Positions 10,353 to 37,623 of a stretch of 64,000 bases of DNA are shown here, piece by piece. The DNA is from a virus. Under the pieces are notes generated by a model. That model was given only the letters and a program-made list of their open reading frames with translations. It was not told the origin of the DNA and did not search any database. Where the stretch lies: the UHGV virus genome UHGV-1376088, one strand, 5' to 3'. The position numbers and the translations under genes were made by a program. How positions within the stretch are numbered: the first letter of the stretch is position 1; every line of letters begins with the position of its first letter.

Positions 10353-11576
10353 ATGTCTTCTAAATACGATTTTGAGAAATTACTGACGGTTGCGACAACT
10401 GATGCGCAACGCGAAAAACTTGAAGCGATTATTGAAACTGGTAGCGTTCGTAAAGCTGCTAGAAAACTCGGTATTTCCACCGGCACAATTGGAAATGTAT
10501 TAACCTTTTTGAGTGAGAGACTAGCAAATAGTGTCGCAGTTGAGCAAAGAATTCCTGAAGATACAACTGACACCTCTGCTGTTCTCACTCTTCCTGTATC
10601 CAATGCAGAATCAGGGATTGTAGAAGAGCCAGCTAAATTATCTGTTGGCGACAGTACTTCAACCCTGTATGACTCTAAAGGCAATATTAAATTGCAATGG
10701 GTGAAGAAAGACGGCAAGAATAATGCTATTGCTGAAACAATCTATCGGGCTATGGAATCCTTTAAGGATATCATTCAGCCTGCACCATTTAATATGGCGC
10801 CAAGAGGCATTAGTGGCGAGGGGTTATTGGCTCAATATACAATCACAGATTACCATTTGGGTATGTTTGCATCTAAAGATGAATCTGGTCAAGAGTGGTC
10901 TACTAAAATTGCAACAGAAAAAATTTATCGTGTGATTGATTCTATGGTTGAAGCGACTCCTCATACTGAGCACGCGATTATTAATATTCTTGGCGATTTC
11001 CTTCATAGTGATTCACAGCTTGCTGTTACACCTGCTTCTCGACATATTCTTGATCAGGACTCCCGCTATTCTGATTTAATTTCTATTGCAGTTAGAATCA
11101 TTGCTTACTTTGTTCAACGTGCTCGCACTAAAGCAACGAATGTAACCTTGCTGATTGCACAGGGCAACCATGACCCTATTGGCTCTTTATGGCTGCAAGA
11201 GCTGTTTTCATATTATTTTGAAAACGATCAAAATATCGCCGTAATTAAAAGTTCTTATCCATTCTATGCAATTGAATTTGGCAAAACAATGCTTGCCTAT
11301 CATCATGGTGATAAAGTTCAATTTGCTAAAATGGCTGGCGTTATTCCATCCCTATTCCCTGAAATTTGGGGACGTACAAAATTCCGTTATGCACATATGG
11401 GCGATAAACATCATCGTCGTGTAGTTGAAAGCCTCGGCATTATTGTTGAACAACACCAAACCTTAATTCCAAATGACGCTTATAGTAGCTCTCACGGTTG
11501 GACATCAGAATCTGGTACTAATGTTATCATCTATTCTCGTGAAACCGGTGAATTAAGTAGAATGACTTTTAGATAA
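10353..11576 (+). CDS. HTH domain fused to calcineurin-like metallophosphoesterase
   Basis: N-terminal HTH V-R-K-A-A-R-K-L-G-I-S-T-G-T-I-G-N-V-L. Phosphoesterase motifs follow in order: D-Y-H-L-G, G-D-F-L-H-S-D, G-N-H-D, H-H-G-D and G-D-K-H-H. Confidence 0.5.
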   Translation: MSSKYDFEKLLTVATTDAQREKLEAIIETGSVRKAARKLGISTGTIGNVLTFLSERLANSVAVEQRIPEDTTDTSAVLTLPVSNAESGIVEEPAKLSVGDSTSTLYDSKGNIKLQWVKKDGKNNAIAETIYRAMESFKDIIQPAPFNMAPRGISGEGLLAQYTITDYHLGMFASKDESGQEWSTKIATEKIYRVIDSMVEATPHTEHAIINILGDFLHSDSQLAVTPASRHILDQDSRYSDLISIAVRIIAYFVQRARTKATNVTLLIAQGNHDPIGSLWLQELFSYYFENDQNIAVIKSSYPFYAIEFGKTMLAYHHGDKVQFAKMAGVIPSLFPEIWGRTKFRYAHMGDKHHRRVVESLGIIVEQHQTLIPNDAYSSSHGWTSESGTNVIIYSRETGELSRMTFR

Positions 11577-13661: not shown

Positions 13662-14219
13662 ATGAAAAAACAAATTACACCCAAAAGAAAATCAGTATTA
13701 ATTGTATCAATGCTAAATGATCAGACAACAAATCCTTCTGGTCCTAAAGCAATTCCAAATGCTAATAAAAGTTTGGAAAAGTTACAAACAGCCTTTGCTT
13801 CAGGAAATATTAAACATGATGCCGTGATTGCAGTAGACTATTCTGGCAGTAAGAATAGCAAATGGAGCAGCGGTAAATTGATTCCGAATAGCAAAGTGAT
13901 TAAAGTAGAACTTCAATCTGACAATTGGTTTGGGAAAGAAAACCTTATGCACATTCCCGAGTCAACTGGTGAAGATACTACTGTTCAATACTTTGATAAT
14001 ATTGATTTTCTATTGCCGACACATGAATATGATTTAACCTTTGCTGGCATCGATTTCTTTGGAACAATGAGTGCTTCAATGAAAGAGTTGGCTAGTCGTG
14101 GTTATCGAATTCGCTATTATTCTGATTGCTCTCATTTTTATGGACGCAATCGTAAAGAAGAATTGGCTGAACTTGGAATCTATCGTCACTTCACCTCTTT
14201 TAAAAAGGAAAGTAAATAA
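13662..14219 (+). CDS. hypothetical protein
   Basis: 185 aa ORF. Confidence 0.3.
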   Translation: MKKQITPKRKSVLIVSMLNDQTTNPSGPKAIPNANKSLEKLQTAFASGNIKHDAVIAVDYSGSKNSKWSSGKLIPNSKVIKVELQSDNWFGKENLMHIPESTGEDTTVQYFDNIDFLLPTHEYDLTFAGIDFFGTMSASMKELASRGYRIRYYSDCSHFYGRNRKEELAELGIYRHFTSFKKESK

Positions 14220-14626
14220 TGGATATTCAAGTTACACTATGGGAAAATTCTTCTAATGGTTCTACATTAGCTCGTGGTTTTGTTAAAATTGGCGGATTCG
14301 TTCAGATTAATATTTCTATTTATTCTGGTCGAAATGGTCCATTTATTGCTTTCCCATCTTATAAAAAACAGGATGGAACATGGCAAGAAACTGCAGGTCC
14401 TGTAAGCAAAGAGTCCCGTGAAGCTATTACAGCGGCGGTATTGAATGCATACAATAAAGGTTCTGCGCCTGCTGGAGGAAACGGATATAACGTAGTTGAA
14501 CCTCCACGTACACAGTACCAAGGACAAGCAGCAGCCAGAAGCAATTATGACCCGAATGTAGGTAATGGTAACGGACAGCAACAAGCCAATCCGGATCATG
14601 CACCTATTGGCGGAATTCCTTTTTAA
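14219..14626 (+). CDS. SpoVG-like protein
   Basis: I-S-I-Y-S-G-R-N-G-P-F-I-A-F-P-S-Y-K-K-Q-D-G-T-W-Q-E-T-A-G-P-V-S-K-E-S-R-E-A-I-T-A-A-V-L-N-A-Y parallels the conserved SpoVG core (I-D-G-N-N-G-L-F-V-A-M-P-S-K-R through I-Q-D-A-V-L). A G/N/Q-rich C-terminal tail follows. Codon usage differs from flanking AT-rich genes. Confidence 0.5.
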   Translation: MDIQVTLWENSSNGSTLARGFVKIGGFVQINISIYSGRNGPFIAFPSYKKQDGTWQETAGPVSKESREAITAAVLNAYNKGSAPAGGNGYNVVEPPRTQYQGQAAARSNYDPNVGNGNGQQQANPDHAPIGGIPF

Positions 14627-14634
14627 GGTAAACT

Positions 14635-15108
14635 ATGTCTAATTATAATGTAGCAGAACAACCCTTGGAGTATGCAATTTATAAATCCAAGGCAGCGCTT
14701 CGTATGCGCTTAGTTAACCCTCGTATTAATAATTCTTCCGGAAGAGATATTCTGAATAAAGGTTTTGTTTATTTAGAAATTGCCCCTATAAAAGAAGGTT
14801 CTGGAAATCAAAAACAATACGAATGGGAAAATAAAAAAATCGGCGTAAAACTTGGGATGCCTGATTTGTCTCAGATTGTTTATTCCATGAAACGCGGACA
14901 AGAGGCCGAAATGTTTCACGAATTTGATGGTTCAACCAAAGTTATTAAATTAACTCGAACCACCGAAGGTAAGTCTCCTTATTTTATTTCGGTAACTCAA
15001 AACAATGGCGGTGTGAAATCCCAATATTCAATTCCTATCAGCGGACAAGAAGCTGAAGTGATTTTGAATTTGGTATCTTATGCTATTCCTAAAACCCTCA
15101 ATTGGTAA
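14635..15108 (+). CDS. hypothetical protein
   Basis: 157 aa ORF in the codon-usage-distinct cluster. Confidence 0.3.
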   Translation: MSNYNVAEQPLEYAIYKSKAALRMRLVNPRINNSSGRDILNKGFVYLEIAPIKEGSGNQKQYEWENKKIGVKLGMPDLSQIVYSMKRGQEAEMFHEFDGSTKVIKLTRTTEGKSPYFISVTQNNGGVKSQYSIPISGQEAEVILNLVSYAIPKTLNW

Positions 15109-15525: not shown

Positions 15526-15720
15526 ATGTCTCAAATTCGTGGCTATATTTACAACGGCGAAACCAAAACTCTGCCAAATGGCGGCACTACTACCGTTGAA
15601 AACATGTTGACTGCTTTGAAAACCAAATTTGTTGCCCTGCGCACCGACGGCTCATTCGACCATGTCGTAAACAGCGATGGCTATCTGGTTATCACAAACC
15701 GCACCGGCTCTAAAGCCTAA
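15526..15720 (+). CDS. ThiS/MoaD-like beta-grasp small protein (candidate ubiquitin-like)
   Basis: 64 aa. I-Y-N-G-E-T-K-T-L-P-N-G-G-T-T-T-V-E-N-M-L-T-A-L then V-N-S-D-G-Y-L-V-I mirrors the ThiS/MoaD pattern. It ends T-G-S-K-A rather than G-G. Confidence 0.3.
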   Translation: MSQIRGYIYNGETKTLPNGGTTTVENMLTALKTKFVALRTDGSFDHVVNSDGYLVITNRTGSKA

Positions 15721-15885
15721 GTAAGGTTTAAATTACAATTTGCTCTTATTGAACGCTTGATTGCGTAATATGGGTCAGTGGGGCCCAAATGATTATAGGA
15801 CTCCGTATTTTGCATTTATATGCAGCGGGGTCCATTTTTCTTTTTTGCCTTGATTGGCTGTTATATTTTTGTTGGAGAGATATAT

Positions 15886-16221
15886 ATGTCTTATGTTGAT
15901 GACGAGTTTTTAGCTATTCTTGGCAATGTGGAAAATACAGCAAAAGAAGCTAAAGACGAAATAGAAGCTGCTGGCGAAATGGGCGAAGATATTATTTTGA
16001 ACCTTCAAAATATCTTTGAACAAGGTGAAGATGTAGGCGTAGATGCCGAAGATTTAAAAATTATTATGGAAGCTCGTTCTACTGTCCATATTAAGCCAGA
16101 AATTATTGAACGTATTCTCAGAAATTTTAAACCCGAGTTTTGGACTAGATCTTCTGTAACTATTGATGTTGCTATGGAAGCCATTAAAAACTCTCAAAAT
16201 ATCCTGGACGATTATTATTAA
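15886..16221 (+). CDS. hypothetical acidic protein
   Basis: ORF-track frame 15820..16221. The likely start is ATG 15886 after a ggagag RBS. Confidence 0.3.
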   Translation: MSYVDDEFLAILGNVENTAKEAKDEIEAAGEMGEDIILNLQNIFEQGEDVGVDAEDLKIIMEARSTVHIKPEIIERILRNFKPEFWTRSSVTIDVAMEAIKNSQNILDDYY

Positions 16222-16236
16222 ATCGAAGGGATAAAT

Positions 16237-16815
16237 ATGATAATTGCTAACCAGGGCCAGGCTGTTATGAGAATCCTTTTTGCAAAGCTTGCAAATGAAT
16301 TGGGTTTAAAATACAAAATTCCAAAAAAGATTAAGCCTAGAAATTTTGATGTATTTTTTAAGAATCTGCGATTTAAGACTATAAATATTGGTCGTGATCC
16401 TTCAGGTAGATATTTTGTAGAAATAGATACCATGATTGATTTTAGAAAAACGGTTAGAGAGATTATTGATGATTATGGTTCTAGCCTATCGCTTTTATCA
16501 TATGATTGCAGTCTTATTCATGTCGCCGACAGGGGTCATTTTGTAGAAATATCTTTACCGAATAGGAATGCTGTTTTGTCTATATATGACCGAGATGTAA
16601 ATCAACTTGGGCAATTCAATAGAAGCTCTTATAATAGGGAAGATGGCGAGTATGGGATAAAAGGAATATTTAGCGAAAATGGTTCCTTATATATTCGCAA
16701 GTCTTTAATTGATGATATATACATATATTGTCGTTCCGCTGACTGTGTGCGGAGAGATCTTCTTGTTCTTCTTGATGGCAAAACTTTTGAATATATAGCA
16801 AGAAGAGGGCATTGA
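16237..16815 (+). CDS. hypothetical protein
   Basis: 192 aa ORF. Confidence 0.3.
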   Translation: MIIANQGQAVMRILFAKLANELGLKYKIPKKIKPRNFDVFFKNLRFKTINIGRDPSGRYFVEIDTMIDFRKTVREIIDDYGSSLSLLSYDCSLIHVADRGHFVEISLPNRNAVLSIYDRDVNQLGQFNRSSYNREDGEYGIKGIFSENGSLYIRKSLIDDIYIYCRSADCVRRDLLVLLDGKTFEYIARRGH

Positions 16816-16878
16816 TATTAATAAATATATCCTAATGATATTGAAATTAATATTTATTAAATATAAATGGAGTTTTAA

Positions 16879-17388
16879 ATGGATAGAAATAAAATATATC
16901 AGAGGATTATGTTATTAAAATTAATCGAAGGTTCTGGACTTAATACTCCATATGAGATGGACCTCGATCTAGTTGGCAATGCCTTTCTGGGCAAAGAGTA
17001 TAAAATTTTCTCAGATGATATAGATAATCTTGGAAGAGTTGTTATTGTGGGTACAATGAATCTTACCCCAACAGTGATACCTAAATCATTCAGTTCAAGA
17101 TTAAGAACATTCCTTTTCTTTTTCAGGAAAGAAAACGAATTGCATCTTGTGAGTATAAAAACGAGATACATAAATGCTATTACTTATAATTTTATGAAAG
17201 ATATCGGCGCTAAAAAGATATACTATACGACTGACGAAAGCGAAACAAGATTGGTGTCTAGCGACTTTAATGGTATAGAAAAGATCTATTATCATCCAGT
17301 ATCATCTATTCATAGAAGCGGCATTTCATATAAAAATGTTATGGATGATTTTAGCCTAAGGTGCTCCAGTTTGATAAATTTCTTATAA
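16879..17388 (+). CDS. hypothetical protein
   Basis: 169 aa ORF. Confidence 0.3.
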   Translation: MDRNKIYQRIMLLKLIEGSGLNTPYEMDLDLVGNAFLGKEYKIFSDDIDNLGRVVIVGTMNLTPTVIPKSFSSRLRTFLFFFRKENELHLVSIKTRYINAITYNFMKDIGAKKIYYTTDESETRLVSSDFNGIEKIYYHPVSSIHRSGISYKNVMDDFSLRCSSLINFL

Positions 17389-17389
17389 G

Positions 17390-18031
17390 GTGTCTTATAT
17401 GGATCTTATTAATTTGAATAAGCCCTTAAATAAATTGATCATATCTAAGATTTTATTAGATGGAAACTATAAGGCGGATATTTATAAATTTAAGGAAATC
17501 ATACCATATATTTATGCCATTCGTACTAACAATAGAGGGCAAATTTTTCTTGAATTCGTAACAGAAGTCGACATGGGATTTGATGTAATGGCTCGAGACA
17601 CTGGAAGGGCATTTATTAGTCGTTCCGTCTGGAATCTTTTATGTTATGGTGATTTAGGAAATTTTATAAATTTATCGTGTGAACTGTATAATGAAAATCA
17701 AAGATATCTTAGCTATCTTATGAGCCATCTGCCCAATCATTACAATGATATAATAGAGGTTCAATACCGAGAAGGGCAAAAATATTTTATTTATTACTTA
17801 GTTGAATTTATAGCCGGCTCGAAAGAAAATCTATATTCAAAAATTCATAATATAAGCTCCAATAAGATGGAAGCTTTTCGAACTATGCAAGGTGAAGTAT
17901 TTAATTCCCTTACATACAATATGAAGCGTAATGAAAAATACGATATGAAAATTTCAGGCAAGAGCTCGTATATAAGTCATATGGATGAATACACATTTTT
18001 CGAATTTTATGATAGATATCGAAACATTTAA
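17390..18031 (+). CDS. hypothetical protein
   Basis: 213 aa ORF immediately upstream of the E2-like gene. Confidence 0.3.
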   Translation: MSYMDLINLNKPLNKLIISKILLDGNYKADIYKFKEIIPYIYAIRTNNRGQIFLEFVTEVDMGFDVMARDTGRAFISRSVWNLLCYGDLGNFINLSCELYNENQRYLSYLMSHLPNHYNDIIEVQYREGQKYFIYYLVEFIAGSKENLYSKIHNISSNKMEAFRTMQGEVFNSLTYNMKRNEKYDMKISGKSSYISHMDEYTFFEFYDRYRNI

Positions 18032-18042
18032 AGGAAGTAAAT

Positions 18043-18762
18043 ATGCAAGGCAAAATTAATATTGAAGTTTTGAGTCAAGACAAAGCTATTATCCATGTTC
18101 AGGATCTGCAAGGTAAATGCACATCTAAAATGGTTACAACAAAAGCTGCCGCTGCGGCTCTGGCTGGCCCTAATGGTGAAGCTAAAGATTCTGGATTGAT
18201 CCCCCAAAACATTTTAAGAATTTGGGAGAATTCACAATACAAGGGCTATTTGATTTATCAGCCGTCTAGAATGTTTGGCATTAAATATGAAGGAAGGTCA
18301 TTGCGCCAAGTCAAACTTCCTGGAATTGTTATGAAAGCAGTTGTGAATTCAAGAGGGCAATTTATCGGCGATAGAAGCTCTATCTTTATTTGTAATGGCG
18401 ATGAAATCAAACCCGATACAAAACTTTGGCATTTACGAATGAACAATTATAGCTCCGGTTATGGTATTTGCTGGGGCGATAATAAGAATATTGCAAATTC
18501 GATTCTAGCTAGTGGAAACCTATTTGATATTGAGCAGCTCCCGCAATTATTCTTTGGATCAACATTTAACTCGGATTTGGATAATACATATATCTTTGAC
18601 AATTCCATGTTAAGAAGAATTAATGAAAATCCTTCAATTCCTAATCATAGAAATTTAACAGTTCAATTTTTTACATTGAAAGGGTTAGAGAATGAAGATT
18701 ATAATCTGGAATCCGAATTAATGACCGAATATGATGCGGTTCTTAGCGGCATTATGATGTAA
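18043..18762 (+). CDS. candidate E2/UBC-like conjugating enzyme
   Basis: 239 aa. W-H-L-R-M-N-N then G-Y-G-I-C-W-G resembles the HPN...G-x-I-C-L core of UBC-fold E2s. It lies directly upstream of the JAB and E1 genes. Confidence 0.35.
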   Translation: MQGKINIEVLSQDKAIIHVQDLQGKCTSKMVTTKAAAAALAGPNGEAKDSGLIPQNILRIWENSQYKGYLIYQPSRMFGIKYEGRSLRQVKLPGIVMKAVVNSRGQFIGDRSSIFICNGDEIKPDTKLWHLRMNNYSSGYGICWGDNKNIANSILASGNLFDIEQLPQLFFGSTFNSDLDNTYIFDNSMLRRINENPSIPNHRNLTVQFFTLKGLENEDYNLESELMTEYDAVLSGIMM

Positions 18763-18790
18763 ATTTGCGAAATAATTAAAGGAAAATATT

Positions 18791-20167
18791 ATGAGTTTGA
18801 GCGTTGCTGATCTGATGGGCGAAATGGATTTTCGTTTGCCGAAGGTTGTACAAAGCAAAGAAGAAGCAGAAGATGGCGATTCTATTGTAGCTGAAGACGG
18901 TATCTATAAATTGGTCCGCGCCATTATTGGTGACTTCTGGATTAAGGCAGAAAGCTTTAAGACTAAGATGGTTGGAATGCCGCAGCTGTCAGAAAGCTTT
19001 ACACAGTCATCTGAAATTCCTAAAATCCCAGGTGAATTGTTTTACGGTATTATCAGATTCTACCGTAAAATTTACGAAACAAATAAAAATGAAGTGATGG
19101 CCCAGATTTGGTGGGATAAAGAAGAGCGCAAATTCCTGGTTGAAGTTCCAGAACAAGAAGTTGCAGGTGCTTCTATTACTTATCAAAGAACCGGCGGATG
19201 GTATGATGATCCTAATAAGGTCCTTGTATTGACATCTCACTCACATCATACAATGGGTGCATTCTATTCATCCGTAGACAATTCAGATGAAAAAGGCAAA
19301 CATGGAATTTACTCATTTGTATTTGGCAATTTAGTAAATAAGCCTGACGGAACATTTACATATAAAACCGTTCAGCGCGTATGCTGTGCAGACGCATTAA
19401 TTCCATTACAGCTGGAAGATATTTTTGATTTTACCGAAGGTTGCGAATTTCTTTTCGAAATCCCAGAAGAGGATTACGCAAAAGTTAAAGCTAAAGTTTA
19501 TAACTATGGAGCTTATGCTAATTATGGCAAATCTAAATCAAAGGGGTTTCCTTACACGGGCGGCCAATCAACTCCCGCAAACGTCTCAAAAATCGAAGAC
19601 AACTATGAATTTTACTCAGGATATCTGGGTTATTCTTACGGGAGTTATGACAGCGCTTGGGATTCTGTGGATTATCCTAACAATGCTTCAACTGTAGGAT
19701 CAAGCGCTATAGAAAAACGATGGCAAACTGGTGCTGAAGCCACGGTTGACAGAGTTAAATATGGATATATTTCCTCTATACTGAGAGGAATGTCCAAGCC
19801 TGGCGATGAGCTCCTGTATAACTATTTTGAATTCAAAGAAATTGAATCTATTGTTTCTGATTTTGTAAATGCTGTAAGCCTGCCGGAAACACATCCGTAT
19901 TATATGTTCGCAGAGCTTCTGAACTCATTTATGTCTAATCTTTTGGAAGGTCTTTCAGATGTACAATATGGTGATCGTGAAGGGCTTAGCAAAATTGAAG
20001 ATCCATCAAAAGCATTTGCCGTTGTGATTGCATCTGCTATTAGTGGTGTGGAGGATTCTTTTAATAGTATGGCTTCTCCTAATAGCGCTGTTGACCTTAT
20101 GAAAGACCATAATTTGAGCTTTTTGTATCTACCAGAACGAATTGCCGCTTATTTAAAAGATTTTTAA
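18791..20167 (+). CDS. JAB/MPN+ (JAMM) metalloprotease domain protein
   Basis: An upstream Glu (E-V-P-E-Q-E) then S-H-S-H-H-T-M-G-A-F-Y-S-S-V-D gives an exact H-x-H-x7-S-x2-D JAMM motif. A long Y/G/S-rich low-complexity C-terminal region follows. Confidence 0.6.
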   Translation: MSLSVADLMGEMDFRLPKVVQSKEEAEDGDSIVAEDGIYKLVRAIIGDFWIKAESFKTKMVGMPQLSESFTQSSEIPKIPGELFYGIIRFYRKIYETNKNEVMAQIWWDKEERKFLVEVPEQEVAGASITYQRTGGWYDDPNKVLVLTSHSHHTMGAFYSSVDNSDEKGKHGIYSFVFGNLVNKPDGTFTYKTVQRVCCADALIPLQLEDIFDFTEGCEFLFEIPEEDYAKVKAKVYNYGAYANYGKSKSKGFPYTGGQSTPANVSKIEDNYEFYSGYLGYSYGSYDSAWDSVDYPNNASTVGSSAIEKRWQTGAEATVDRVKYGYISSILRGMSKPGDELLYNYFEFKEIESIVSDFVNAVSLPETHPYYMFAELLNSFMSNLLEGLSDVQYGDREGLSKIEDPSKAFAVVIASAISGVEDSFNSMASPNSAVDLMKDHNLSFLYLPERIAAYLKDF

Positions 20168-20179
20168 AGGAAATACCTT

Positions 20180-21082
20180 ATGCAAAATGCTGTACTTGGC
20201 AGAAAGAAAATTGAATTTATTTCAACTCAAGATGAAATCAATAAGCATCAGAAAGAAGTTGAAGATTACGAAATGACAAAATTAATGCAACGTCTTTCGT
20301 CCGCCGAAACTAATGCTCCTAAAAAGCCGCTTGACCGCATTGTTGTTGTTGGTTGTGGCGGAACTGGCTCTTGGTTAATTCCAAAACTTGCAAAAACCAT
20401 CAATGATATGAAGCGCAAGAAATTACTTGCTAATCATTTTTCTTTGATTCTTGTTGATGGCGACCAAATTGAACCTAAAAATTTGATTCGGCAGAACTTT
20501 GTTGAATCAGATATTGGTAAAAATAAAGCGGAAATCATGGCTCTTCGATATGGGGCAACGCTTAAAGATATTAATGTCCAATATATCGACAAGTATTTGA
20601 CCGATAAGTCAAGTTTTGACACTAATCACTTTTCCCATATCAATGTTTTGCAGAATATGATTTACGATGACAATTATTGTGTCATATTCAATCTTGTTGA
20701 TAACCAAAATGCAAGACGCGCGGTTCACTCATTACAGTTCTGCGGCTGGATTGTTGATATTGGTAATGAACTGGCACATGGCCAATTGTTTGCAACTCCA
20801 TATGGTTTGACTAGTGGCTTTATTGGATCATTAAGCTTCTTCACTATGTCTCCGGAAACGTTGACGGCAGATGAAGAAGTGAAAATTTATTCTTGCGCCG
20901 AAGCCGATGCGGATACAGAGCTGGAAGAACAGTTCTTGGTTGCCAACGATACAGCTGCTTTGGTTGGACATAACTGGCTATGCTCTTTAATGAGCGGTCC
21001 AGATGTAGTTCCTGCAAGAATTAATTTTACATGCTTGCCAATTCCGACCGTAGAAACAGTGTTGAAAACAATCCGGTTTTAA
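20180..21082 (+). CDS. E1-like ThiF/MoeB-family adenylyltransferase
   Basis: Rossmann I-V-V-V-G-C-G-G-T-G-S-W. D-G-D-Q-I-E-P-K-N-L-I-R-Q corresponds to D-x-D-x-V-x-x-S-N-L-x-R-Q. E-S-D-I-G-K-N-K-A-E and N-L-V-D-N-Q-N-A-R correspond to D-C-T-D-N-x-x-x-R. Confidence 0.7.
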   Translation: MQNAVLGRKKIEFISTQDEINKHQKEVEDYEMTKLMQRLSSAETNAPKKPLDRIVVVGCGGTGSWLIPKLAKTINDMKRKKLLANHFSLILVDGDQIEPKNLIRQNFVESDIGKNKAEIMALRYGATLKDINVQYIDKYLTDKSSFDTNHFSHINVLQNMIYDDNYCVIFNLVDNQNARRAVHSLQFCGWIVDIGNELAHGQLFATPYGLTSGFIGSLSFFTMSPETLTADEEVKIYSCAEADADTELEEQFLVANDTAALVGHNWLCSLMSGPDVVPARINFTCLPIPTVETVLKTIRF

Positions 21083-21089
21083 TGTATAT

Positions 21090-21124
21090 GGTCGACATTA
21101 AATATGTCGACCGTTCTTTACTTT
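21090..21124 (+). terminator. rho-independent terminator after the E1 gene
   Basis: ggtcgacat-taaat-atgtcgacc perfect 9-bp stem then gttctttacttt. Confidence 0.5.
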
Positions 21125-21137
21125 CAAGGAAGTTAAA

Positions 21138-22679
21138 ATGGAAGATAAAAATTTGTGTTTGAGCTTTTTAGCGCCTATGATGAATTTGTCTCAAACATTT
21201 TTAAATATTATCGAAAAAATTGAAAACGAAGAATGCTCTATTGACTCTTCGTTTCCTGAAAAGTTATTCAATAAGACGCCAAAAGAAGATGTTTTAAACG
21301 CGATTGAAACTCTCATTGATTATAATAATTTATTTTTGATTGACTTTGATGAGTATTCGAAAAAAGTAAAAACCTTATCAGATTTCGTTGGTAATTGTAA
21401 CAACACAATTCTTTTCAGAAACTTTAGAACTGATAAGGGTCGTGAAGTTTGCTATATCAATAAGCAGATCCCAGACATTTATTCAGATAGGATTAAAGAG
21501 ATCCATTCTAATATTAGACCCTTAATAGGCCGCCTAACTCCTAGACTGAATTTAATTAAAAATCAGAATTCTACAGATTCATATGTAGACATTAATTACG
21601 ATCAGATGGCCATCAAATCAGATATTTCTTCGTTCTTTCGCTCTGTAAGATTTGAAAATGTTATTAAATACCTCTCTAAGACTTTCCTTGTTAAAAATAT
21701 ACTTATGTATAGCAAAAGTCAAACTGAAAACAAAGAGCTTAGAGTATTTGAGCGAATTGAAATTGCTTTATGGGGATTTATTAGTTGTCTATTCCATAAT
21801 GGTATTATCCCTACTGGAGCTAGATATGCAAATGATTTAGCCGCCTGCTATTTGAATAATCTTGTTTTTAATACCTTTAGAAAGGACATGCTATATTCGA
21901 ATCGTGCAAGAATCTATGTATATGTAGATGACCTGCTCTTTCTCGGAGAGGAAGGCAATGTTAAAGAATTTTATGCGGAATTCGAAAAGGCTATCAATAA
22001 AGGCGGACTATATCTGAATTATAAGAAGACTCAATATTTTTATCCTAAAAATGGAATTCTTGAGTATTCTTCTTTGGGCAGAACTAGAAAATTTGACTTC
22101 ACAACTGGTTTTGTTTCTAAAGTTGATTCGAAAGCCCGCAAAAAATGTTTGGATATTATTAAAGAGCGCCGCGAATACGATGCCTCTGAGAAGGGTATCA
22201 TTAATTATGCATTATATATGAGGCATGGAGCCAATAAGATTGTCAATCCAGATATATTAATGCATTCTTATTTTAATGATAAATCCGAACTGTGGGATAA
22301 ACTTATAGCAGGTGAATTGAATCTGAAATTGAATAAGAGTATTTTTGATCCCACTAATCTGAAATATAAGGATATATGTATAATGTCAAAAGATATTGAT
22401 GTCGGTTTTCTTTCCGCTCATCAATTCCTTGACATTACAGATGCGATAGCAGAATTTGTAAAACTGTTTATCCTCGACAATCCTTTTGGTCTTAACCTAT
22501 ATGGAATTAATCTAACAGAATCCAATGAGGGTAATTATAATTTAATTCTGAATTTGGTAAGACAACGATCCAGAGGCACTGCGAATATAATCCCATGTCC
22601 TTTAATTTTCAGAAAAGATTTCCTAAACGGACTTTATGTAGAAGGCAAAGATGAAAGCGCTTTAAATGGATGGATATAA
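21138..22679 (+). CDS. reverse transcriptase (divergent; Abi/UG-like with C-terminal extension)
   Basis: RT motif A S-D-I-S-S-F-F-R-S-V. Motif B-like G-I-I-P-T-G-A-R-Y-A-N-D-L-A-A-C-Y-L. Motif C Y-V-Y-V-D-D-L-L-F-L-G. Motif D/E G-L-Y-L-N-Y-K-K-T-Q. About 230 aa follow the RT core. Confidence 0.6.
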   Translation: MEDKNLCLSFLAPMMNLSQTFLNIIEKIENEECSIDSSFPEKLFNKTPKEDVLNAIETLIDYNNLFLIDFDEYSKKVKTLSDFVGNCNNTILFRNFRTDKGREVCYINKQIPDIYSDRIKEIHSNIRPLIGRLTPRLNLIKNQNSTDSYVDINYDQMAIKSDISSFFRSVRFENVIKYLSKTFLVKNILMYSKSQTENKELRVFERIEIALWGFISCLFHNGIIPTGARYANDLAACYLNNLVFNTFRKDMLYSNRARIYVYVDDLLFLGEEGNVKEFYAEFEKAINKGGLYLNYKKTQYFYPKNGILEYSSLGRTRKFDFTTGFVSKVDSKARKKCLDIIKERREYDASEKGIINYALYMRHGANKIVNPDILMHSYFNDKSELWDKLIAGELNLKLNKSIFDPTNLKYKDICIMSKDIDVGFLSAHQFLDITDAIAEFVKLFILDNPFGLNLYGINLTESNEGNYNLILNLVRQRSRGTANIIPCPLIFRKDFLNGLYVEGKDESALNGWI

Positions 22680-26626: not shown

Positions 26627-27277
26627 GTGTCTAAAATAGAAATGAACGTTTCGCCCGACGTCAAAAGGGCAATGACTAACTTTAAGACTGCAATGAATAA
26701 GAAGTATGGAGAAGGTAGTGATATTTTTGCCAACGGGCAGTATCAGAATTTTGAGTCTATCTCTTCTGGTTCTGCCATTCTTGATGGTCTTCTTGGTAAT
26801 GGAGGATGGGTCAGGGGCCGTGTTCACGAAATCTTTGGCGCGTCCGGTTCTGGCAAATCCACTATTGTATCTTTGACTTGTGCAAATGCACGTCGACAAT
26901 ATCCGGATAAATACATTTTATATGTGGACGCCGAACAAGCGCAAAACCATGCCTATATGAAAAAATTGGGGCTTGATTGCGAGAACGATGAAGGTGTCGT
27001 ATTCCTCCAGATGCAGGAAGCTGAGAATGTCTTTGAAGTTATTGACGGTGCGGTTGCTACCGGCGCCTTTAGTTTGGTTGTCGTTGATAGTGTTCCAGCG
27101 TTAATGACTAAACGCGAATTGAATGGCGATTACGACAAAGAAACGATGGCCGAGAAAGCTCGCTTCCTGTCTAAAGCTTTGCCCAAGCTTTTGGAATCTT
27201 TGAAGAAAGCTAATACCACTATGATTTTTGTGAATCAGGTAAGGGACAAGATGGATATGTGGGGCGGAGTTACTACC
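26627..27277 (+). CDS. recA: RecA/UvsX-like recombinase, exon 1
   Basis: I-L-D-G-L-L-G-N-G-G-W-V-R-G-R-V-H-E-I-F-G-A-S-G-S-G-K-S-T (Walker A) and T-M-I-F-V-N-Q-V-R-D-K-M match RecA. Homology stops at T-T-P-G(N) and resumes in the next ORF. Confidence 0.7.
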
Positions 27278-27577
27278 CCTGGTAATAGTATCTATGGTTA
27301 CTATTTAGTAACTGTAGATTTCTGCCGTTCATAGTGGAAACATTATGAATCATGATAGCGGAATTAAGCGAGAAAATCCTCCCTCTTAGATAGGACAACT
27401 CGAACCGAAGGCTGGCCCTAACGGCCCAGTCAGGGGCAACGCATAGAAGCTGAAACTAATAATAGAATATAATGCTTCCACGAGGCCGCTACACCTAAGT
27501 CCTTTGGATATGGTGAAAAAGTATGCTGAACTGCATTGTAATGATGCAGAGGCAGAGATAAAAAGCTCTGCGATAAC
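27278..27577 (+). mobile_element. ORF-less group-I-like intron in recA (boundaries about 10 nt uncertain)
   Basis: About 300 nt interrupt RecA between T-T-P-G-N and A-I-P-F-Y-C-S-S-R-V. The sequence shares the core seen in the dnaE introns (the cacctaagt...atggtgaaaa...gataacaa motifs). It is GC-richer than flanking DNA. Confidence 0.55.
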
Positions 27578-28018
27578 AAAATGGGAAAAGCCATTCCGTT
27601 TTATTGCTCAAGTCGTGTTAAAGTAAATTCGACCCCGTCAATGCGAATTAAAAATTCAGCCGGCGATGGATTCATTGGTCAAACCGTGGACTTTACTATA
27701 ATTAAGAATAAAGTCGGTAGTCCTTTTGGTGTTGGTGAATCTAATCTTTATTTTGGTGTTGGTTTTAATAAAGTTGAAGAACTTATTGAAGCTGCTATTG
27801 CCAAAGATGTTTTTGAAAAGGGCGGAGCCTGGTACACATTACCTTATTGTACTGAAGATGGCGAAGTTTTAAAATTTCAAGGTAAAACTGGCCTTAAATC
27901 ATATTATGAAGCCAATCCTTCCGAATTAGATAAACTTCAAGAACTTGTTAACAATGCGGGACGTGATGATGAAATTCAAGTAGTTGGGGCGCCCGGTACA
28001 GTTGAGGATGGATATTAA
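27578..28018 (+). CDS. recA: RecA/UvsX-like recombinase, exon 2
   Basis: G-K-A-I-P-F-Y-C-S-S-R-V-K-V corresponds to RecA G-N-A-L-K-F-Y-A-S-V-R-L. V-G-S-P-F-G matches the RecA A-A-P-F-K region. Confidence 0.65.
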   Translation, partial: KMGKAIPFYCSSRVKVNSTPSMRIKNSAGDGFIGQTVDFTIIKNKVGSPFGVGESNLYFGVGFNKVEELIEAAIAKDVFEKGGAWYTLPYCTEDGEVLKFQGKTGLKSYYEANPSELDKLQELVNNAGRDDEIQVVGAPGTVEDGY

Positions 28019-28588: not shown

Positions 28589-30346
28589 ATGGACTTTGTA
28601 TCCACTCCTGAAAATCCAAATGGTGATATTAAACCCGAAGATATCGGGAAGTATACGAATTTACATGCTCATAGCATTTATAGTCCTTTAGATGGCTTCG
28701 GTAAGCTTGAAGAATATTGCGAACGGGTAAAAGCTCTAGGGATGAAAGGCTTATGCCTTTCTGAACATGGCAATATGATTGGTCATCATGAACAGGCTAA
28801 GATTTGTGCTAAGCATGGCATTAAGCCTATTTTTGCTAATGAAGGGTATATGACTCTTCATGCCGGATCTATTAAAGAAAAGATAGAGGGTTATAAGGCG
28901 AACTATCATATTTTGCTTATTGCTATTAATGAGCAGGGTTATAGAAACCTTATGAAAGCTACATCTATTGCTTGGACACGTTATAAATATTATAAGCCAC
29001 GCTTTGATTTAGCACTTCTTGAAGAATGCAACGAGGGCCTGATTTGTACATCTGCTTGTCTTGGCGGACCAATTAATCAGTTATATTTAGATGGCCGACC
29101 TGAAGAGGCTGAACAGGTTGCGCTAAAGCTGAAAGAGATTTTCGGCGATAGATTTTATTTGGAAAAAACTTATACCGGCTTAGAAGAGCAAGATATTGCT
29201 AATAAGAATTTGGTTGAGATTTCTAAAAAGCATAATATACCTATGATTATTACTTGTGATAGTCATTATGTTTATCCTTGGCAATCTGATAGTCATGCAA
29301 AATTGGTTATGGTTAATACTGGCGGTCAAATCAATAAAGCGATTAAGGCTGCCGGCTTAACTGACTCTAGCAAAGAAGATGCTGACGTAGATAGCAACTC
29401 TATGTTCTATCAGCCTAGTCAGTATTATGTTAAACCACATCATGTATTGGTTGAAGAATATTATTCTAATCCTGAAGATGAAGAAGCCTTTGCCAATACT
29501 AATAAAATTGCAGATATGTGCAATGTGGTTTTACCTAAAAATGAAGACATCATTTTTCCTTCACCATATTCTGATCCCGATTCTGTTTTAAGAGGACGGG
29601 CAATGCAATGGTATTCGGAATACTCTAAAAAACTTTCTGATGAACAAAAAGCATTGTATTTAGATAGGCTGGAAGAAGAGCTGGATATGTATTCTAAAAT
29701 GGGCTTTAGTTCTTATCCTTTGGTGCTGCAAGAGATTCTTGATGAAGCCAAAGCGAAAGGCATTATGATTGGCCCTGGCCGAGGATGCCTATTTGAGGGA
29801 ACTAAAGTTCTAATTAATAGATCCGGATCCATATATTATTGTCCGATTGAATTTGTCAAAGTCGGCGATATGGTATGGACACATAATAGCAGATGGAAGT
29901 CTGTATATCATACCACTAAATATGTTGTAGACTATAGAGATATGGTTACTCTCGAGACAGAATATGGTATGATGCACCTCACAGAAGACCATAAAGTAAA
30001 AACAAAAAACCATGGATTTATCCCTGCTATTGAATTAGACGGACAAATACACACACTGGATAGAGGAACTTTATCCGATGAAATTCTGTCTAAAGTTGAA
30101 GATTATAAAACCGATTCAATCGAAAATTTTGAACTTTCTAGCTTCTATAATGAGGATGAACCTGTAAGGGTTTATGATCTTATGGTTGATGAAGATTGTT
30201 CTTTTAGAACTAATATCTGTATGGTGCACAATAGTGCCGCGGGGTCTTTACTCTCTTATGCATTAGGTATTACTGCTATTGACCCTATACCATATGGACT
30301 AATGTTCAGTCGTTATCTTAACGCCGGACGCGCAAAACTACCGGTT
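28589..30346 (+). CDS. dnaE: DNA polymerase III alpha (DnaE-type) exon 1, with PHP domain; contains mini-intein
   Basis: L-H-A-H-S-I-Y-S-P-L-D-G-F-G-K is the PHP N-terminus. G-P-G-R-G then intein then S-A-A-G-S-L-L-S-Y-A-L-G-I-T-A-I-D-P. F-S-R-Y-L-N-A-G-R ends the homology, which resumes at 37624. Confidence 0.75.
29786..30232 (+). mobile_element. mini-intein (149 aa) in DnaE at the GRG/SAAGS site
   Basis: Begins with Cys (C-L-F-E-G-T-K-V-L) and ends V-H-N, followed by Ser. The flanking exteins reconstitute the conserved G-R-G-S-A-A-G-S motif. Confidence 0.7.
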
Positions 30347-30403
30347 ATTGAAATTAAAGGCTACCCATTAAAAGAGTGGCTAACAACAGAAAGAAAATAA
30401 AAA

Positions 30404-37114: not shown

Positions 37115-37370
37115 ATATAAAACATTAAGAGAATTAGTTTTATCCTTTTCTGACACCGATTGGTTTAAAGAACATAGAGCAAATATTATGTTTGAATTAA
37201 ACCATTGTGAACTTCATCATATTGATTCCTATTATTTGAATTTATACAATGCAGGCGTTAAAGGTATAGAGGAAAATGAAGCTAATTCTTCTATTGCATA
37301 TTTACTCGGAATTGTAACAACCCCGCCAAATGGTAAAGTTCATACTGTTGGCGGAGGTTTCCCGGATTAA
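37089..37370 (+). CDS. hypothetical protein (intron cargo)
   Basis: 93 aa. Confidence 0.25.
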   Translation: MIQVKKMAEYKTLRELVLSFSDTDWFKEHRANIMFELNHCELHHIDSYYLNLYNAGVKGIEENEANSSIAYLLGIVTTPPNGKVHTVGGGFPD

Positions 37371-37623
37371 AGAAATAGTCCCTTTGTTAAGAAATTGACA
37401 ACAGAAAACTCTGTGAAAACGGTGGAACTCTCTAGAAGACAATGCCGTGCGAAAGTTTGCGAAAGCGAAAGACGTGTAACGACTATTATGTAGGGCCAAG
37501 TGGTTCGAAGCGCAGAGCACCTAAATCCTTATGGACATGGTGATGAGATAGTCTGGTCTCTATGGCGACATAGAGCTGGTTTTGTACCGGGTATAGATTA
37601 ACGACCTATACTGAACATAAACG

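What the first reader, a model, noticed from the sequence alone, without database searches (positions are those of the whole stretch)
18043..21082. Contiguous E2-like / JAB (JAMM) / E1 (ThiF-like) ubiquitin-like conjugation module in a lytic phage
Three consecutive co-oriented genes encode a UBC-like candidate (H-L-R-M-N-N...G-I-C-W), a JAMM metalloprotease with an exact H-x-H-x7-S-x2-D motif, and a ThiF/MoeB E1 carrying the Rossmann, D-x-D-x-x-x-x-N-L-x-R-Q and D-N-x-x-x-R signatures. The module ends at a clean terminator. Together they form a complete Ubl conjugation/deconjugation cassette of the kind found in bacterial Bil/Bub-type and Cap2/Cap3-type defence operons, here carried by a virus. 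No obvious GG-terminated Ubl gene lies adjacent. The Ubl may be unrecognisable, distal, or host-derived. The cassette could modify virion or host proteins, or antagonise host Ubl-based defence.
Basis: partly seen in the sequence, partly recalled or inferred. Interest (0 to 1): 0.9.

Follow-up and report, generated by a model that had tools for sequence, protein, structure and literature searches.

The report
Phage-encoded ubiquitin-like protein tagging system
A large bacteriophage carries its own four-part ubiquitin-like tagging kit: a small tag protein, an activating enzyme, a carrier enzyme and a trimming protease. This kind of kit was predicted from genomes in 2006 and I found no experimental test of it; here it turns out to be a conserved module in many big phages.

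Summary
18043-18762 is an E2-like protein (Prok-E2_D type; Asn135 and Cys143 invariant). 18791-20167 is a JAMM/JAB metalloprotease (E101, H150, H152, S160, D163 invariant). 20180-21082 is a ThiF-type E1 (Cys239 invariant). A 64-aa beta-grasp ubiquitin-like protein at 15526-15720 ends in an invariant ...TGSKA.

The cassette is not Bil, Bub or Cap2/Cap3. It is a divergent phage-borne branch of Iyer et al.'s 2006 "operon type 6d", also known as the TIGRFAM PRTRC cassette, with the same order: Ubl, rapidly diverging gene(s), E2, JAB, E1. It lacks the ParB, E and F partners.

The module occurs in at least 158 IMG/VR viral contigs, of which 80 fell into 36 lineages. It also occurs in the isolated phages Arash, D69, WH1 and ME3. 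In relatives the Ubl is often a tandem poly-Ubl of 2-6 repeats, each ending GTKG. All four genes are under purifying selection, and in relatives JAB carries a group I intron while E1 is split.

Most likely function: the phage conjugates its own Ubl to proteins during infection. Targets and biological role are unknown, and I found no experimental paper.

The parts
15526..15720 (+). Ubiquitin-like protein (Ubl), 64 aa, translated already ending in the family motif ...N-R-T-G-S-K-A
   Evidence: - Conserved in 9 relatives with an invariant C-terminal TGSKA.
- AF2 model pLDDT 84.8, beta-beta-alpha-beta-beta with a floppy tail.
- hhalign to PRTRC_C plus phage poly-Ubl repeats gives P=2.3e-4 over 55 columns.
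- It is the best of 967 six-frame segments of the window against an external Ubl profile (E=0.086; next best 3.6).
- It holds the same upstream position as the Ubl genes of other phages and of PRTRC.
- dN/dS is 0.06.
15886..16221 (+). Small acidic protein of 111 aa (the listed ORF starts at 15820, but relatives' gene calls are 110-111 aa). First of the rapidly diverging genes between Ubl and E2. Role unknown.
   Evidence: - Gene lengths in relatives are 110-111 aa.
- Found in only 6 loci of the window's own family.
- No family hit.
- Small genes (60-127 aa) also lie between Ubl and E2 in WH1, pAD3, D69 and Arash (sequences).
16237..18031 (+). Three rapidly diverging genes (16237-16815, 16879-17388, 17390-18031) filling the Ubl-to-E2 gap. 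Possible specificity or accessory factors. Membership in the system is unproven.
   Evidence: - No Pfam, NCBIfam, PHROG or PADLOC hits.
- Detectable only in the closest relatives (4-6 loci).
- No profile link to PRTRC_F or to the gap genes of other lineages.
- Iyer et al. 2006 describe a 'rapidly diverging alpha-helical protein' at this position in operon type 6d.
18043..18762 (+). E2-like (UBC-superfamily, Prok-E2_D type) protein, 239 aa. Candidate catalytic Cys143 (codon 18469-18471) lies 8 residues after Asn135. A downstream 'FNSDL' motif is also conserved.
   Evidence: - Pfam Prok-E2_D E=5.2e-5 (23.5 bits, cutoff 25).
- 8 of 12 aligned homologues hit Prok-E2_D (best 2.9e-52) and 3 hit PRTRC_B.
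- N135 and C143 are invariant in 62/62 unique homologues.
- dN/dS is 0.10.
18791..20167 (+). JAB/JAMM zinc metalloprotease, 458 aa. JAB-N plus JAB core occupy residues ~30-215 (E101, H150, H152, S160, D163). A ~250-aa C-terminal extension has unknown function.
   Evidence: - NCBIfam PRTRC_A 9.6e-13 (residues 32-205) and Pfam Prok-JAB 8.6e-5.
- The complete E...HxHx7Sx2D motif is invariant in 67/67 unique homologues.
- In relative L007 a group I intron with a LAGLIDADG endonuclease gene is inserted right after 'HSHHTMG'.
- dN/dS is 0.19.
20180..21082 (+). ThiF/MoeB-type E1 adenylating enzyme, 300 aa, with a single adenylation domain. Candidate catalytic Cys239 (codon starts at 20894).
   Evidence: - Pfam ThiF 2.5e-15 and NCBIfam PRTRC_ThiF 7.9e-18.
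- A profile hits E. coli ThiF (3e-10) and the Uba1 active adenylation domain (4e-10) in the PDB.
- GxGGxG, D95, N101, R104, Q105, K116, D174 and C239 are invariant wherever covered.
- dN/dS is 0.13.
21088..21114 (+). Terminator-like hairpin closing the E2-JAB-E1 block
   Evidence: 11-bp stem (5 G-C pairs), 5-nt loop, tail TCTTTACTTT. This is a pattern match only; function was not shown.
21138..22679 (+). Neighbouring reverse transcriptase (513 aa, YVDD motif). Recurrent neighbour of the cassette; a functional link is unproven.
   Evidence: - Pfam RVT_1 5.4e-9. PADLOC RT models match only weakly.
- Lies directly after E1 in the window's family and in L023 and L059, and about 0.5 kb downstream of E1 in L040. 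It is the fifth most shared neighbouring gene family (6 of 36 lineages).
- No match in isolated phage genomes or in the PDB.
- Homologues are confined to this phage family.

Best explanation
The window carries a four-component ubiquitin-like protein conjugation system encoded by a large (~170-190 kb) phage. The components are:
- a 64-aa beta-grasp Ubl (15526-15720);
- an E2-like carrier (18043-18762);
- a JAMM/JAB isopeptidase (18791-20167);
- a ThiF-type E1 (20180-21082).

It is a divergent, phage-borne branch of the bioinformatically defined '6d'/PRTRC family.

Inferred mechanism, none of it shown experimentally:
1. The E1 uses ATP to adenylate the C-terminal carboxylate of the Ubl (...G-S-K-A).
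2. The E1 takes the Ubl as a thioester on Cys239.
3. The Ubl passes to Cys143 of the E2-like protein.
4. The E2-like protein transfers it to lysines of target proteins.
5. The JAB protease reverses the modification. In relatives whose Ubl is made as a tandem poly-Ubl or with a C-terminal extension, the JAB also cuts after the G-T-K-G motif to expose the reactive end.

Because the module is syntenic within the replication/early-middle gene block, I think it serves the phage's own infection cycle rather than being a defence cargo. The targets, whether host or phage proteins, are unknown.
For: All four parts are identified:
- E1 and JAB by HMMs.
- E2 by Prok-E2_D, directly and through homologues.
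- Ubl by fold, profile and position.

Catalytic residues are invariant across 36 lineages: the JAB E/H/H/S/D motif 67/67, E2 N135/C143 62/62, and the E1 ATP-site residues and C239 60/60.

Gene order Ubl...E2-JAB-E1 on one strand holds in 51 of 81 loci. A further 20 show E2-JAB-E1. The order is the same as in the PRTRC cassette of a Ralstonia plasmid and in Iyer's type 6d.

Ubl genes end exactly at G[TSA]K[GA]-stop in 26 of 37 unique cases. The others are 2-6 tandem repeats or carry 1-66 extra residues, which gives a JAB a processing role.

All four genes are under purifying selection (dN/dS 0.06-0.19).

The cassette lies between SpoVG/Whirly and RuvC/RecA/PolIII-alpha genes with conserved synteny in relatives. 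In relatives the JAB gene carries a group I intron and the E1 gene is found in two pieces.

Products of the homologous genes of Salmonella phage Arash were detected by mass spectrometry.
Against: - No biochemical or genetic data exist for this family, and I found none in the literature.
- The window's proteins score below the curated cutoffs of every family model. Its Ubl gives no direct Pfam/NCBIfam hit.
- The Ubl-to-Prok_Ub link is weak statistically (hhalign probability 44%, P 2e-4; HMM E 0.086 within the window).
- The Ubl ends in Ala rather than the Gly usual for conjugated Ubls.
- No target, E3 or recognisable substrate gene is conserved nearby.
- The pro-phage role is inferred from genomic position only.
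Confidence: 0.75

Rival explanations
1. Counter-defence device. The cassette's main job would be to neutralise host Ubl-based immunity (Bil, type II CBASS). The JAB might strip host Ubl or CD-NTase conjugates, or the phage might tag and inactivate host defence proteins with its own Ubl.
For: - Host Bil and type II CBASS systems use the same chemistry against phages.
- The genes between Ubl and E2 evolve very fast, as host-interaction factors often do.
- PRTRC on plasmids sits beside ParB and an orphan methylase. From my own knowledge, that company is typical of establishment or anti-defence regions.
Against: - The whole writer machinery (Ubl, E1, E2) is conserved, not just the protease.
- The JAB and E2 give no hit to PADLOC models of defence-system proteins. 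The E1 resembles Cap2 only in the generic adenylation domain.
- There is no direct evidence of any interaction with a defence system.
- This rival overlaps the main explanation. It shares the biochemistry and differs only in the target.
Confidence: 0.12
2. Phage-carried defence or superinfection-exclusion cargo. It would be a Bil-like system that tags proteins of competing phages.
For: - Bil systems with the same four activities protect bacteria by tagging phage tail proteins.
- Many relatives sit on large Bacillus and Clostridium plasmids. I suspect these are phage-plasmids, but that was not checked.
Against: - The cassette sits in a syntenic core block among replication genes, not in a variable island.
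- In relatives it is interrupted by a group I intron and by E1 gene splits, as several core genes of this phage are.
- It lacks Bil's multidomain E1 and gives no PADLOC hits for E2 or JAB.
Confidence: 0.06
3. Sulfur-carrier pathway. The small beta-grasp protein would be a ThiS/MoaD-like carrier that the ThiF-type enzyme converts to a thiocarboxylate. A JAB would trim it (as in CysO/Mec+) to make a thio-cofactor or a modified nucleotide.
For: - The E1 is a single-domain enzyme as close to E. coli ThiF as to Uba1.
- A radical-SAM gene lies elsewhere in the window.
Against: - An E2-like protein with an invariant Asn-x7-Cys is conserved next to the JAB and E1 in 74 of 81 loci. Sulfur-carrier pathways have no use for one.
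- No ThiG, MoaE, rhodanese or cysteine desulfurase was seen among the neighbours scanned.
- The C-terminus is Lys-Ala or Lys-Gly, not Gly-Gly.
- Poly-Ubl precursors resemble polyubiquitin, not sulfur carriers.
- The E1 lacks the ThiF/MoeB Cys-x-x-Cys zinc motifs.
Confidence: 0.05

Closest known systems
Iyer, Burroughs & Aravind 2006 'operon type 6d', equivalent to the TIGRFAM PRTRC cassette (Pfam Prok_Ub, Prok-E2_D, Prok-JAB; NCBIfam PRTRC_C/B/A/ThiF). Computationally defined, function untested.
   Same: - Same four components and the same order: Ubl, rapidly diverging gene(s), E2-like, JAB with an N-terminal extension, single-domain E1.
- Best HMM matches of the JAB and E1 are PRTRC_A and PRTRC_ThiF.
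- The E2 motif N-x7-C-x-G is shared with PRTRC_B.
- The Ubl C-terminal G-x-K-G/A motif is shared with PRTRC_C.
   Different: - Carried by a large phage inside its replication gene block. No ParB, PRTRC_E or PRTRC_F is present.
- All scores fall below the curated cutoffs.
- The Ubl ends in Ala.
- The E2 has 'FNSDL' where PRTRC_B has the family's conserved His ('FTHPN').
- The JAB has a ~250-aa C-terminal extension.
- Relatives encode poly-Ubl precursors with 2-6 repeats.
Bil (BilABCD) antiphage systems
   Same: Separate Ubl, E2, JAB peptidase and E1 genes. Conjugation of a Ubl to lysines without an E3 (as summarised).
   Different: - BilD is a multidomain E1 (inactive plus active adenylation domains and a mobile Cys domain). 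Here the E1 is a 300-aa single adenylation domain.
- Bil is a bacterial defence system that tags phage tails. This cassette is a syntenic phage gene block.
- No sequence-family link was found.
Type II CBASS Cap2/Cap3
   Same: E1 adenylation domain, E2-like Cys and JAB protease chemistry. The window's E1 matches PADLOC 'E1-E2' models at up to 2e-10 in the adenylation domain.
   Different: - Cap2 is an E2-E1 fusion that conjugates the CD-NTase's own C-terminus, with no separate Ubl.
- Here E2 and E1 are separate, a dedicated Ubl exists, and no CD-NTase or effector is nearby.
Bub (6E/DUF6527) operons
   Same: Bacterial Ubl, E1 and E2-like operons on mobile elements with unknown biological role. 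Ubls can have several beta-grasp domains.
   Different: I recall from my own knowledge that Bub uses a serine-type peptidase and DUF6527-type E2-like proteins; neither detail is in the passages I read. Here the peptidase is a JAMM metalloprotease and the E2 is Prok-E2_D type.
ThiS-ThiF and MoaD-MoeB sulfur-carrier pairs (with JAB in CysO/Mec+-type pathways)
   Same: Beta-grasp carrier plus a single-domain ThiF-family adenylating enzyme. The Cys aligning with ThiF Cys184 is conserved.
   Different: - An E2-like protein is present.
- There is no Gly-Gly end, no sulfur-transfer or acceptor enzymes, and no Cys-x-x-Cys zinc site.
Lambda/T1 tail-assembly Ubl (TAPI) plus JAB/NlpC (TAPK)
   Same: A phage-encoded beta-grasp protein paired with a JAB peptidase.
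   Different: Those sit in tail gene clusters and have no E1 or E2. This cassette sits in the replication block with both.

Membership tests
Type 6d / PRTRC-type Ubl conjugation cassette | Small standalone beta-grasp Ubl encoded upstream of the enzymes | tested here: met
- hhalign to PRTRC_C plus phage repeats P=2.3e-4.
- Top-ranked segment in the window against an external Ubl profile.
- No direct Prok_Ub or PRTRC_C HMM hit for the window protein itself.
Type 6d / PRTRC-type Ubl conjugation cassette | Highly conserved Gly at the Ubl C-terminus | tested here: not met
   The window family ends invariably in G-S-K-Ala. Most other phage lineages and PRTRC_C have G-T/A-K-Gly. The motif and its position are conserved, but the last residue is Ala.
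Type 6d / PRTRC-type Ubl conjugation cassette | E2-like protein (Prok-E2_D / PRTRC_B) with a conserved Cys and without the classical E2 His | tested here: met
   - Prok-E2_D 5.2e-5, just under cutoff. 8 of 12 homologues match it and 3 of 12 match PRTRC_B.
- C143 and N135 are invariant in 62/62.
- His130 is not conserved among relatives.
Type 6d / PRTRC-type Ubl conjugation cassette | Absolutely conserved His C-terminal to the E2 Cys (Iyer et al. 2006) | tested here: not met
   Where Ralstonia PRTRC_B has 'FTHPN', the window and all phage homologues aligned have 'FN(S/N/D)DL'. At the flanking columns N176 is conserved in 61/62 and D178 in 60/62.
Type 6d / PRTRC-type Ubl conjugation cassette | JAB peptidase with a complete JAMM motif and an N-terminal JAB-N extension (PRTRC_A) | tested here: met
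   PRTRC_A 9.6e-13 over residues 32-205 (48 bits, curated cutoff 101.8). E101, H150, H152, S160 and D163 are invariant in 67/67.
Type 6d / PRTRC-type Ubl conjugation cassette | Single-domain ThiF-family E1 (PRTRC_ThiF) | tested here: met
   PRTRC_ThiF is the best NCBIfam hit at 7.9e-18 (64.7 bits, cutoff 144.75). ATP-site residues and C239 are invariant.
Type 6d / PRTRC-type Ubl conjugation cassette | Gene order Ubl, divergent gene(s), E2, JAB, E1 on one strand | tested here: met
   Seen in the window, the Ralstonia PRTRC plasmid, 51 of 81 viral loci, and the description.
PRTRC cassette in the strict TIGRFAM sense | Co-occurring ParB-family protein and PRTRC proteins E and F | tested here: not met
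   No NCBIfam or Pfam hits among neighbours. phmmer with Ralstonia ParB, E and F finds nothing in the window. This test used a single sequence each, so sensitivity is limited.
Bil (BilABCD) | Multidomain E1 (inactive plus active adenylation domains and a Cys domain) | tested here: not met
   The E1 is 300 aa with one ThiF domain at residues 53-185 plus a C-terminal part.
Bil (BilABCD) | Sequence membership of E2 (BilB), JAB (BilC) and Ubl (BilA) | not tested
   No Bil-specific HMMs or sequences were available. PADLOC v2.0 gave no hit for E2 or JAB, but I do not know whether it holds Bil models.
Type II CBASS Cap2/Cap3 | E2-E1 fusion protein next to a CD-NTase and effector | tested here: not met
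   E2 and E1 are separate genes with the JAB between them. Neighbours show no CD-NTase or effector domains. PADLOC 'E1-E2' matches cover only the adenylation domain.
Bub (6E/DUF6527) | DUF6527-type E2-like protein and a non-JAB peptidase (recalled from my own knowledge) | tested here: not met
   Pfam gives Prok-E2_D and Prok-JAB, with no DUF6527. One search confirms only that the family was previously termed '6E' or 'DUF6527'.
ThiS/MoaD-ThiF/MoeB sulfur-carrier systems | Gly-Gly C-terminus, sulfur donor and acceptor enzymes nearby, no E2 | tested here: not met
   The C-terminus is Lys-Ala. An E2-like gene is conserved. No ThiG, MoaE or rhodanese was found among the neighbours scanned.

The most novel reading that the evidence does not exclude
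Many large and jumbo phages run their own ubiquitin-like post-translational modification pathway. A phage-encoded Ubl, often made as a polyubiquitin-like precursor cut by the JAB, is attached by a phage E1/E2 pair to host or phage proteins as a required step of infection. This would be the viral mirror image of the bacterial Bil defence. In this phage family the pathway may work together with the reverse transcriptase encoded directly after the E1.
Probability: 0.4. Interest if true: 0.85.

Novelty: new variant of a known kind. Interest (0 to 1): 0.62.

Why it matters
Ubiquitin-like conjugation in bacteria has recently been shown to act against phages (Bil, type II CBASS). A complete writer/eraser set encoded by the phages themselves would be the reverse case. 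It is conserved in dozens of lineages and under purifying selection.

I found no assigned function for the 6d/PRTRC kind since its prediction in 2006. The same cassette is present in culturable phages: Salmonella phage Arash, Vibrio phage D69, Bacillus phage WH1 and Acinetobacter phage ME3. That makes the question directly testable by genetics and proteomics.

The Lys-Gly or Lys-Ala end of the Ubl predicts a simple tryptic remnant (+57.02 or +71.04 Da on Lys), which makes target discovery straightforward.

Tried and rejected
- **Near-identical DNA in isolated phages:** none.
- **Direct family hits for the Ubl ORF:** none in Pfam or NCBIfam. The link had to be made through profiles, fold and synteny.
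- **PADLOC and PHROGs for E2 and JAB:** no hits. Bil/CBASS membership rejected.
- **Profile of the E2 family against PDB sequences:** no hit.
- **Intervening genes (15820-18031):** I tried to link them to PRTRC_E/F or to the gap genes of other phages by BLASTP, jackhmmer and hhalign. No link was found.
- **'Structural protein' labels on the Arash E1 and E2 homologues:** rejected as evidence of virion incorporation. The same preparation contained RNA polymerase and ribonucleotide reductase. It shows expression only.
- **DGR-type repeats for the neighbouring RT:** none.
- **Rfam on the interruption of ThiF in relative L010 and of recA in the window:** no intron model matched.
- **The search for related loci with the E2 and E1 alignments:** failed for lack of a conserved stretch. 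The JAB core alignment worked.
- **afdb50 fold library:** unavailable.
- **Literature searches for a phage-encoded system of this kind or for PRTRC function:** nothing relevant.

Full report
**Observation**

They share the + strand and are separated by 28 and 12 bases. The quoted motifs are in the translations:
- 'LWHLRMNNYSSGYGICWG' in the first protein.
- 'HSHHTMGAFYSSVD' in the second, an exact H-x-H-x7-S-x2-D, with the upstream Glu at position 101.
- 'GCGGTGS', 'DGDQIEPKNLIRQ' and 'DNQNAR' in the third. The spacing is D-x-D-x5-N, not x4.

An 11-bp-stem hairpin with a T-rich tail lies at 21088-21114, just after the E1 stop.

HMM searches support the assignments:
- E1: ThiF 2.5e-15 and PRTRC_ThiF 7.9e-18.
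- JAB: PRTRC_A 9.6e-13 and Prok-JAB 8.6e-5.
- E2-like: Prok-E2_D 5.2e-5.

All are below the curated cutoffs, so these are divergent members.

**Context**

The window is part of a large phage genome. It holds a primase-helicase, class I ribonucleotide reductase, thymidylate synthase, RuvC, RecA, a PolIII-alpha-type polymerase in several pieces, and a tail or baseplate gene on the opposite strand at the far end. No isolated phage is close at the DNA level. Metagenomic relatives sit on 170-188 kb contigs. They keep the synteny SpoVG, Whirly, 124-aa gene, 65-aa gene, three to four small genes, E2, JAB, E1, RT, then RuvC, RecA and PolIII-alpha.

**The missing fourth part**

Translated searches found the JAB and E1 side by side in these phages:
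- Salmonella phage Arash
- Vibrio phages D69, D181 and D148
- Bacillus phages WH1 and KLEB27-3 (for Bacillus phage Edson only the E1 matched)
- Acinetobacter phage ME3, where the genes are dispersed
- a human faecal contig

In each record whose annotation I inspected, an E2-like gene lies upstream.

Just upstream of these trios I found genes made of ~60-aa repeats, each ending ...G-T-K-G:
- three repeats in D69 gene 0307
- four in the large Bacillus velezensis plasmid pAD3
- five in WH1 gp211
- a single unannotated 66-aa ORF ending ...RRTGTKG-stop in Arash

The PRTRC cassette of a Ralstonia plasmid has the order ParB, E, C, F, an unannotated B, A, ThiF. Its 72-aa protein C ends ...AGAKG-NHA.

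The window has a 64-aa ORF at 15526-15720 with the same layout, ending ...NRTGSKA-stop. Evidence that it is the Ubl:
- It is conserved in every relative with an invariant TGSKA end.
- Its AF2 model (pLDDT 84.8) is beta-beta-alpha-beta-beta with a disordered tail.
- Five of eleven aligned phage and PRTRC Ubl units match Pfam Prok_Ub. The window ORF itself does not.
- hhalign of the window family against the others gives P=2.3e-4 over 55 columns.
- An HMM built without any window-family sequence ranks this ORF first of 967 six-frame segments (E 0.086; next best 3.6).

Each statistic is modest. Together with fold, motif and position I put the Ubl assignment at about 85%.

**How general, and are the active sites kept?**

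A scan of IMG/VR with the JAB core motif gave at least 158 viral contigs, most on contigs over 100 kb. The 80 I fetched fall into 36 lineages at 50% JAB identity. Of 81 loci including the window:

| Genes found, in that order on one strand | Loci |
|---|---|
| Ubl ... E2 - JAB - E1 | 51 |
| E2 - JAB - E1, no Ubl detected | 20 |
| JAB - E1 only | 7 |
| Ubl, E2 and JAB present, no E1 detected (two of them at a contig end) | 3 |

The Ubl HMM included window-family sequences, so the 12 loci of that family count by construction.

Conservation across unique homologues:
- The five JAMM residues are invariant in 67/67.
- E2 Asn135 and Cys143 are invariant in 62/62, along with P93, G145, N176 and D178 in 60-61 of 62.
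- The E1 glycine loop, D95, N101, R104, Q105, K116, D174 and Cys239 are invariant wherever the column is covered.

Cys239 aligns with Cys184 of E. coli ThiF.

Against the closest comparator, dN/dS is 0.06 (Ubl), 0.10 (E2), 0.19 (JAB) and 0.13 (E1).

Ubl genes end exactly at G[TSA]K[GA]-stop in 26 of 37 unique cases. Four more end in GNKG. The remainder are tandem arrays of 2-6 units or carry 1-66 extra residues. That pattern is what one expects of a modifier whose C-terminus must be exposed, natively or by a protease.

**The E2 fold**

The family link is firmer:
- 8 of 12 aligned homologues match Prok-E2_D (best 2.9e-52) and 3 match PRTRC_B.
- The shared motif N-x7-C-x-G has the same Asn-Cys spacing as the HPN...Cys of canonical E2s. 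The canonical spacing is from my own knowledge.

**What it is**

Iyer, Burroughs and Aravind (2006) described an 'operon type 6d'. [quoted passage not shown] It also has a JAB with an N-terminal extension and an E1-like protein. It occurs in Ralstonia, Cupriavidus, Polaromonas, Bacillus cereus/thuringiensis, Anabaena and Bacteroides. That matches the PRTRC cassette and this phage module component for component.

The window's version differs in these ways:
- No ParB, PRTRC_E or PRTRC_F.
- Four fast-evolving genes, instead of one, between Ubl and E2. I could link them to nothing.
- The Ubl ends in Ala.
- The E2 has 'FNSDL' where PRTRC_B has the conserved His.
- The JAB has a ~250-aa C-terminal extension.

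It is not Bil (multidomain E1), not Cap2/Cap3 (E2-E1 fusion, CD-NTase as substrate) and not Bub.

**How it most likely works**

The presence and conservation of the parts are shown. The rest is inferred. The E1 adenylates the Ubl C-terminus, forms a thioester at Cys239 and passes the Ubl to Cys143 of the E2-like protein. The E2-like protein then modifies lysines of targets. The JAB removes the Ubl again and, in lineages with poly-Ubl or extended precursors, generates the mature end. In the window's family the Ubl is translated in mature form, so here the JAB would act mainly as an eraser.

The cassette's fixed place in the replication block argues for a role in the phage's own cycle rather than a cargo defence system. 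In relatives its JAB gene carries a group I intron and its E1 gene is split, as several core genes of this phage are. Which proteins are tagged is unknown.

The mass-spectrometric detection of the Arash homologues shows expression only. That preparation also contained RNA polymerase and ribonucleotide reductase.

**Rivals**

- A sulfur-carrier pathway is unlikely. The E2-like protein is conserved, the C-terminus is Lys-Ala or Lys-Gly, poly-Ubl forms exist, and no sulfur-transfer partners are present.
- A counter-defence role (tagging or untagging host immune proteins) shares the same biochemistry and cannot be excluded.
- A Bil-like defence cargo is disfavoured by the genomic position.

**Novelty and literature**

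Full-text searches found no paper on a phage-encoded cassette of this kind or on PRTRC function. In the papers I read, the bacterial Ubl pathways described experimentally are type II CBASS, Bil and Bub. GenBank already labels the ME3 genes 'PRTRC system protein A' and 'ThiF', so the homology is not new. The following appear new:
- the Ubl gene of this phage family;
- the mis-annotated Ubl of Arash;
- the poly-Ubl precursors;
- the breadth across large phages.

A pattern scan of 185,579 species genomes gave only 77 loci, mostly MAG contigs. This suggests the branch is mainly viral, though the comparison is rough.

**Verdict**

This is a real, coherent, four-gene phage-encoded Ubl conjugation system. 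It is a new variant of a computationally known but functionally unexplored kind. It is worth experimental follow-up in the culturable phages that carry it.

Noticed in passing
window 21138-22679 (+): A 513-aa reverse transcriptase (RVT_1, YVDD motif) lies directly after the E1 and its hairpin. Homologues are confined to this phage family, yet RT genes also follow the cassette directly in L023 and L059, and about 0.5 kb downstream of the E1 in L040. It is the fifth most shared neighbouring gene family (6 of 36 lineages). It has no DGR-type repeats and no match in isolated phages or the PDB.
   Followed up: partly
window 37358-37575 (+), with ORFs 28589-30400, 37669-38484, 38465-39262, 40264-41541: A group I intron (Rfam RF00028, 67 bits) and a LAGLIDADG endonuclease ORF lie inside a PolIII-alpha-type DNA polymerase gene. 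That gene is split into at least three pieces spread over 13 kb.
   Followed up: partly
window 26627-27334 and 27581-28018 (+): recA is split into two ORFs (RecA N-terminal part and C-terminal part) separated by ~246 nt. Relatives have one 362-364-aa gene. No Rfam intron model matches the gap.
   Followed up: partly
window 48955-51066 (+): The ribonucleotide reductase small-subunit gene is 703 aa and matches its family in two separate stretches. This suggests an intein or other insertion.
   Followed up: no
L007 11223-12284; L010 11263-11538; L017-L021: In relatives the cassette genes are interrupted. A group I intron (78.8 bits) with a LAGLIDADG endonuclease ORF sits right after the JAMM 'HSHHTMG' motif of the JAB gene. 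The JAB hit is also in two pieces in L020-L022. The ThiF gene is split after 'LVDGDTV' in L010 and is in two pieces in four other contigs.
   Followed up: partly
L002 (Salmonella phage Arash OQ632216) minus strand, about 10534-10731: An unannotated 66-aa Ubl ORF ending ...RRTGTKG-stop overlaps the annotated 'gp251c' hypothetical protein in another frame. The deposited annotation probably calls the wrong frame.
   Followed up: partly
L001 (Acinetobacter phage ME3) 6992-7642 and 9668-10102: The ME3 JAB gene is in two pieces. gp326 ends at '...MDIH', at the first His of the JAMM motif. gp131 carries the C-terminal part ~2 kb away. A tRNA-Met and three small genes lie between them.
   Followed up: no
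window 14219-14626 and 14635-15108 (+): The phage encodes SpoVG-like (Pfam 1.7e-12) and Whirly-like (6.3e-15) proteins just upstream of the Ubl region. The pair is conserved in the window's own phage family.
   Followed up: no
L004 (Bacillus phage WH1) 1789-2688: gp211, annotated 'virion structural protein', is five tandem Ubl repeats each ending VQAGTKG. I could not find the basis of the 'virion' label. If it is real, the Ubl or its conjugates may be in particles.
   Followed up: no
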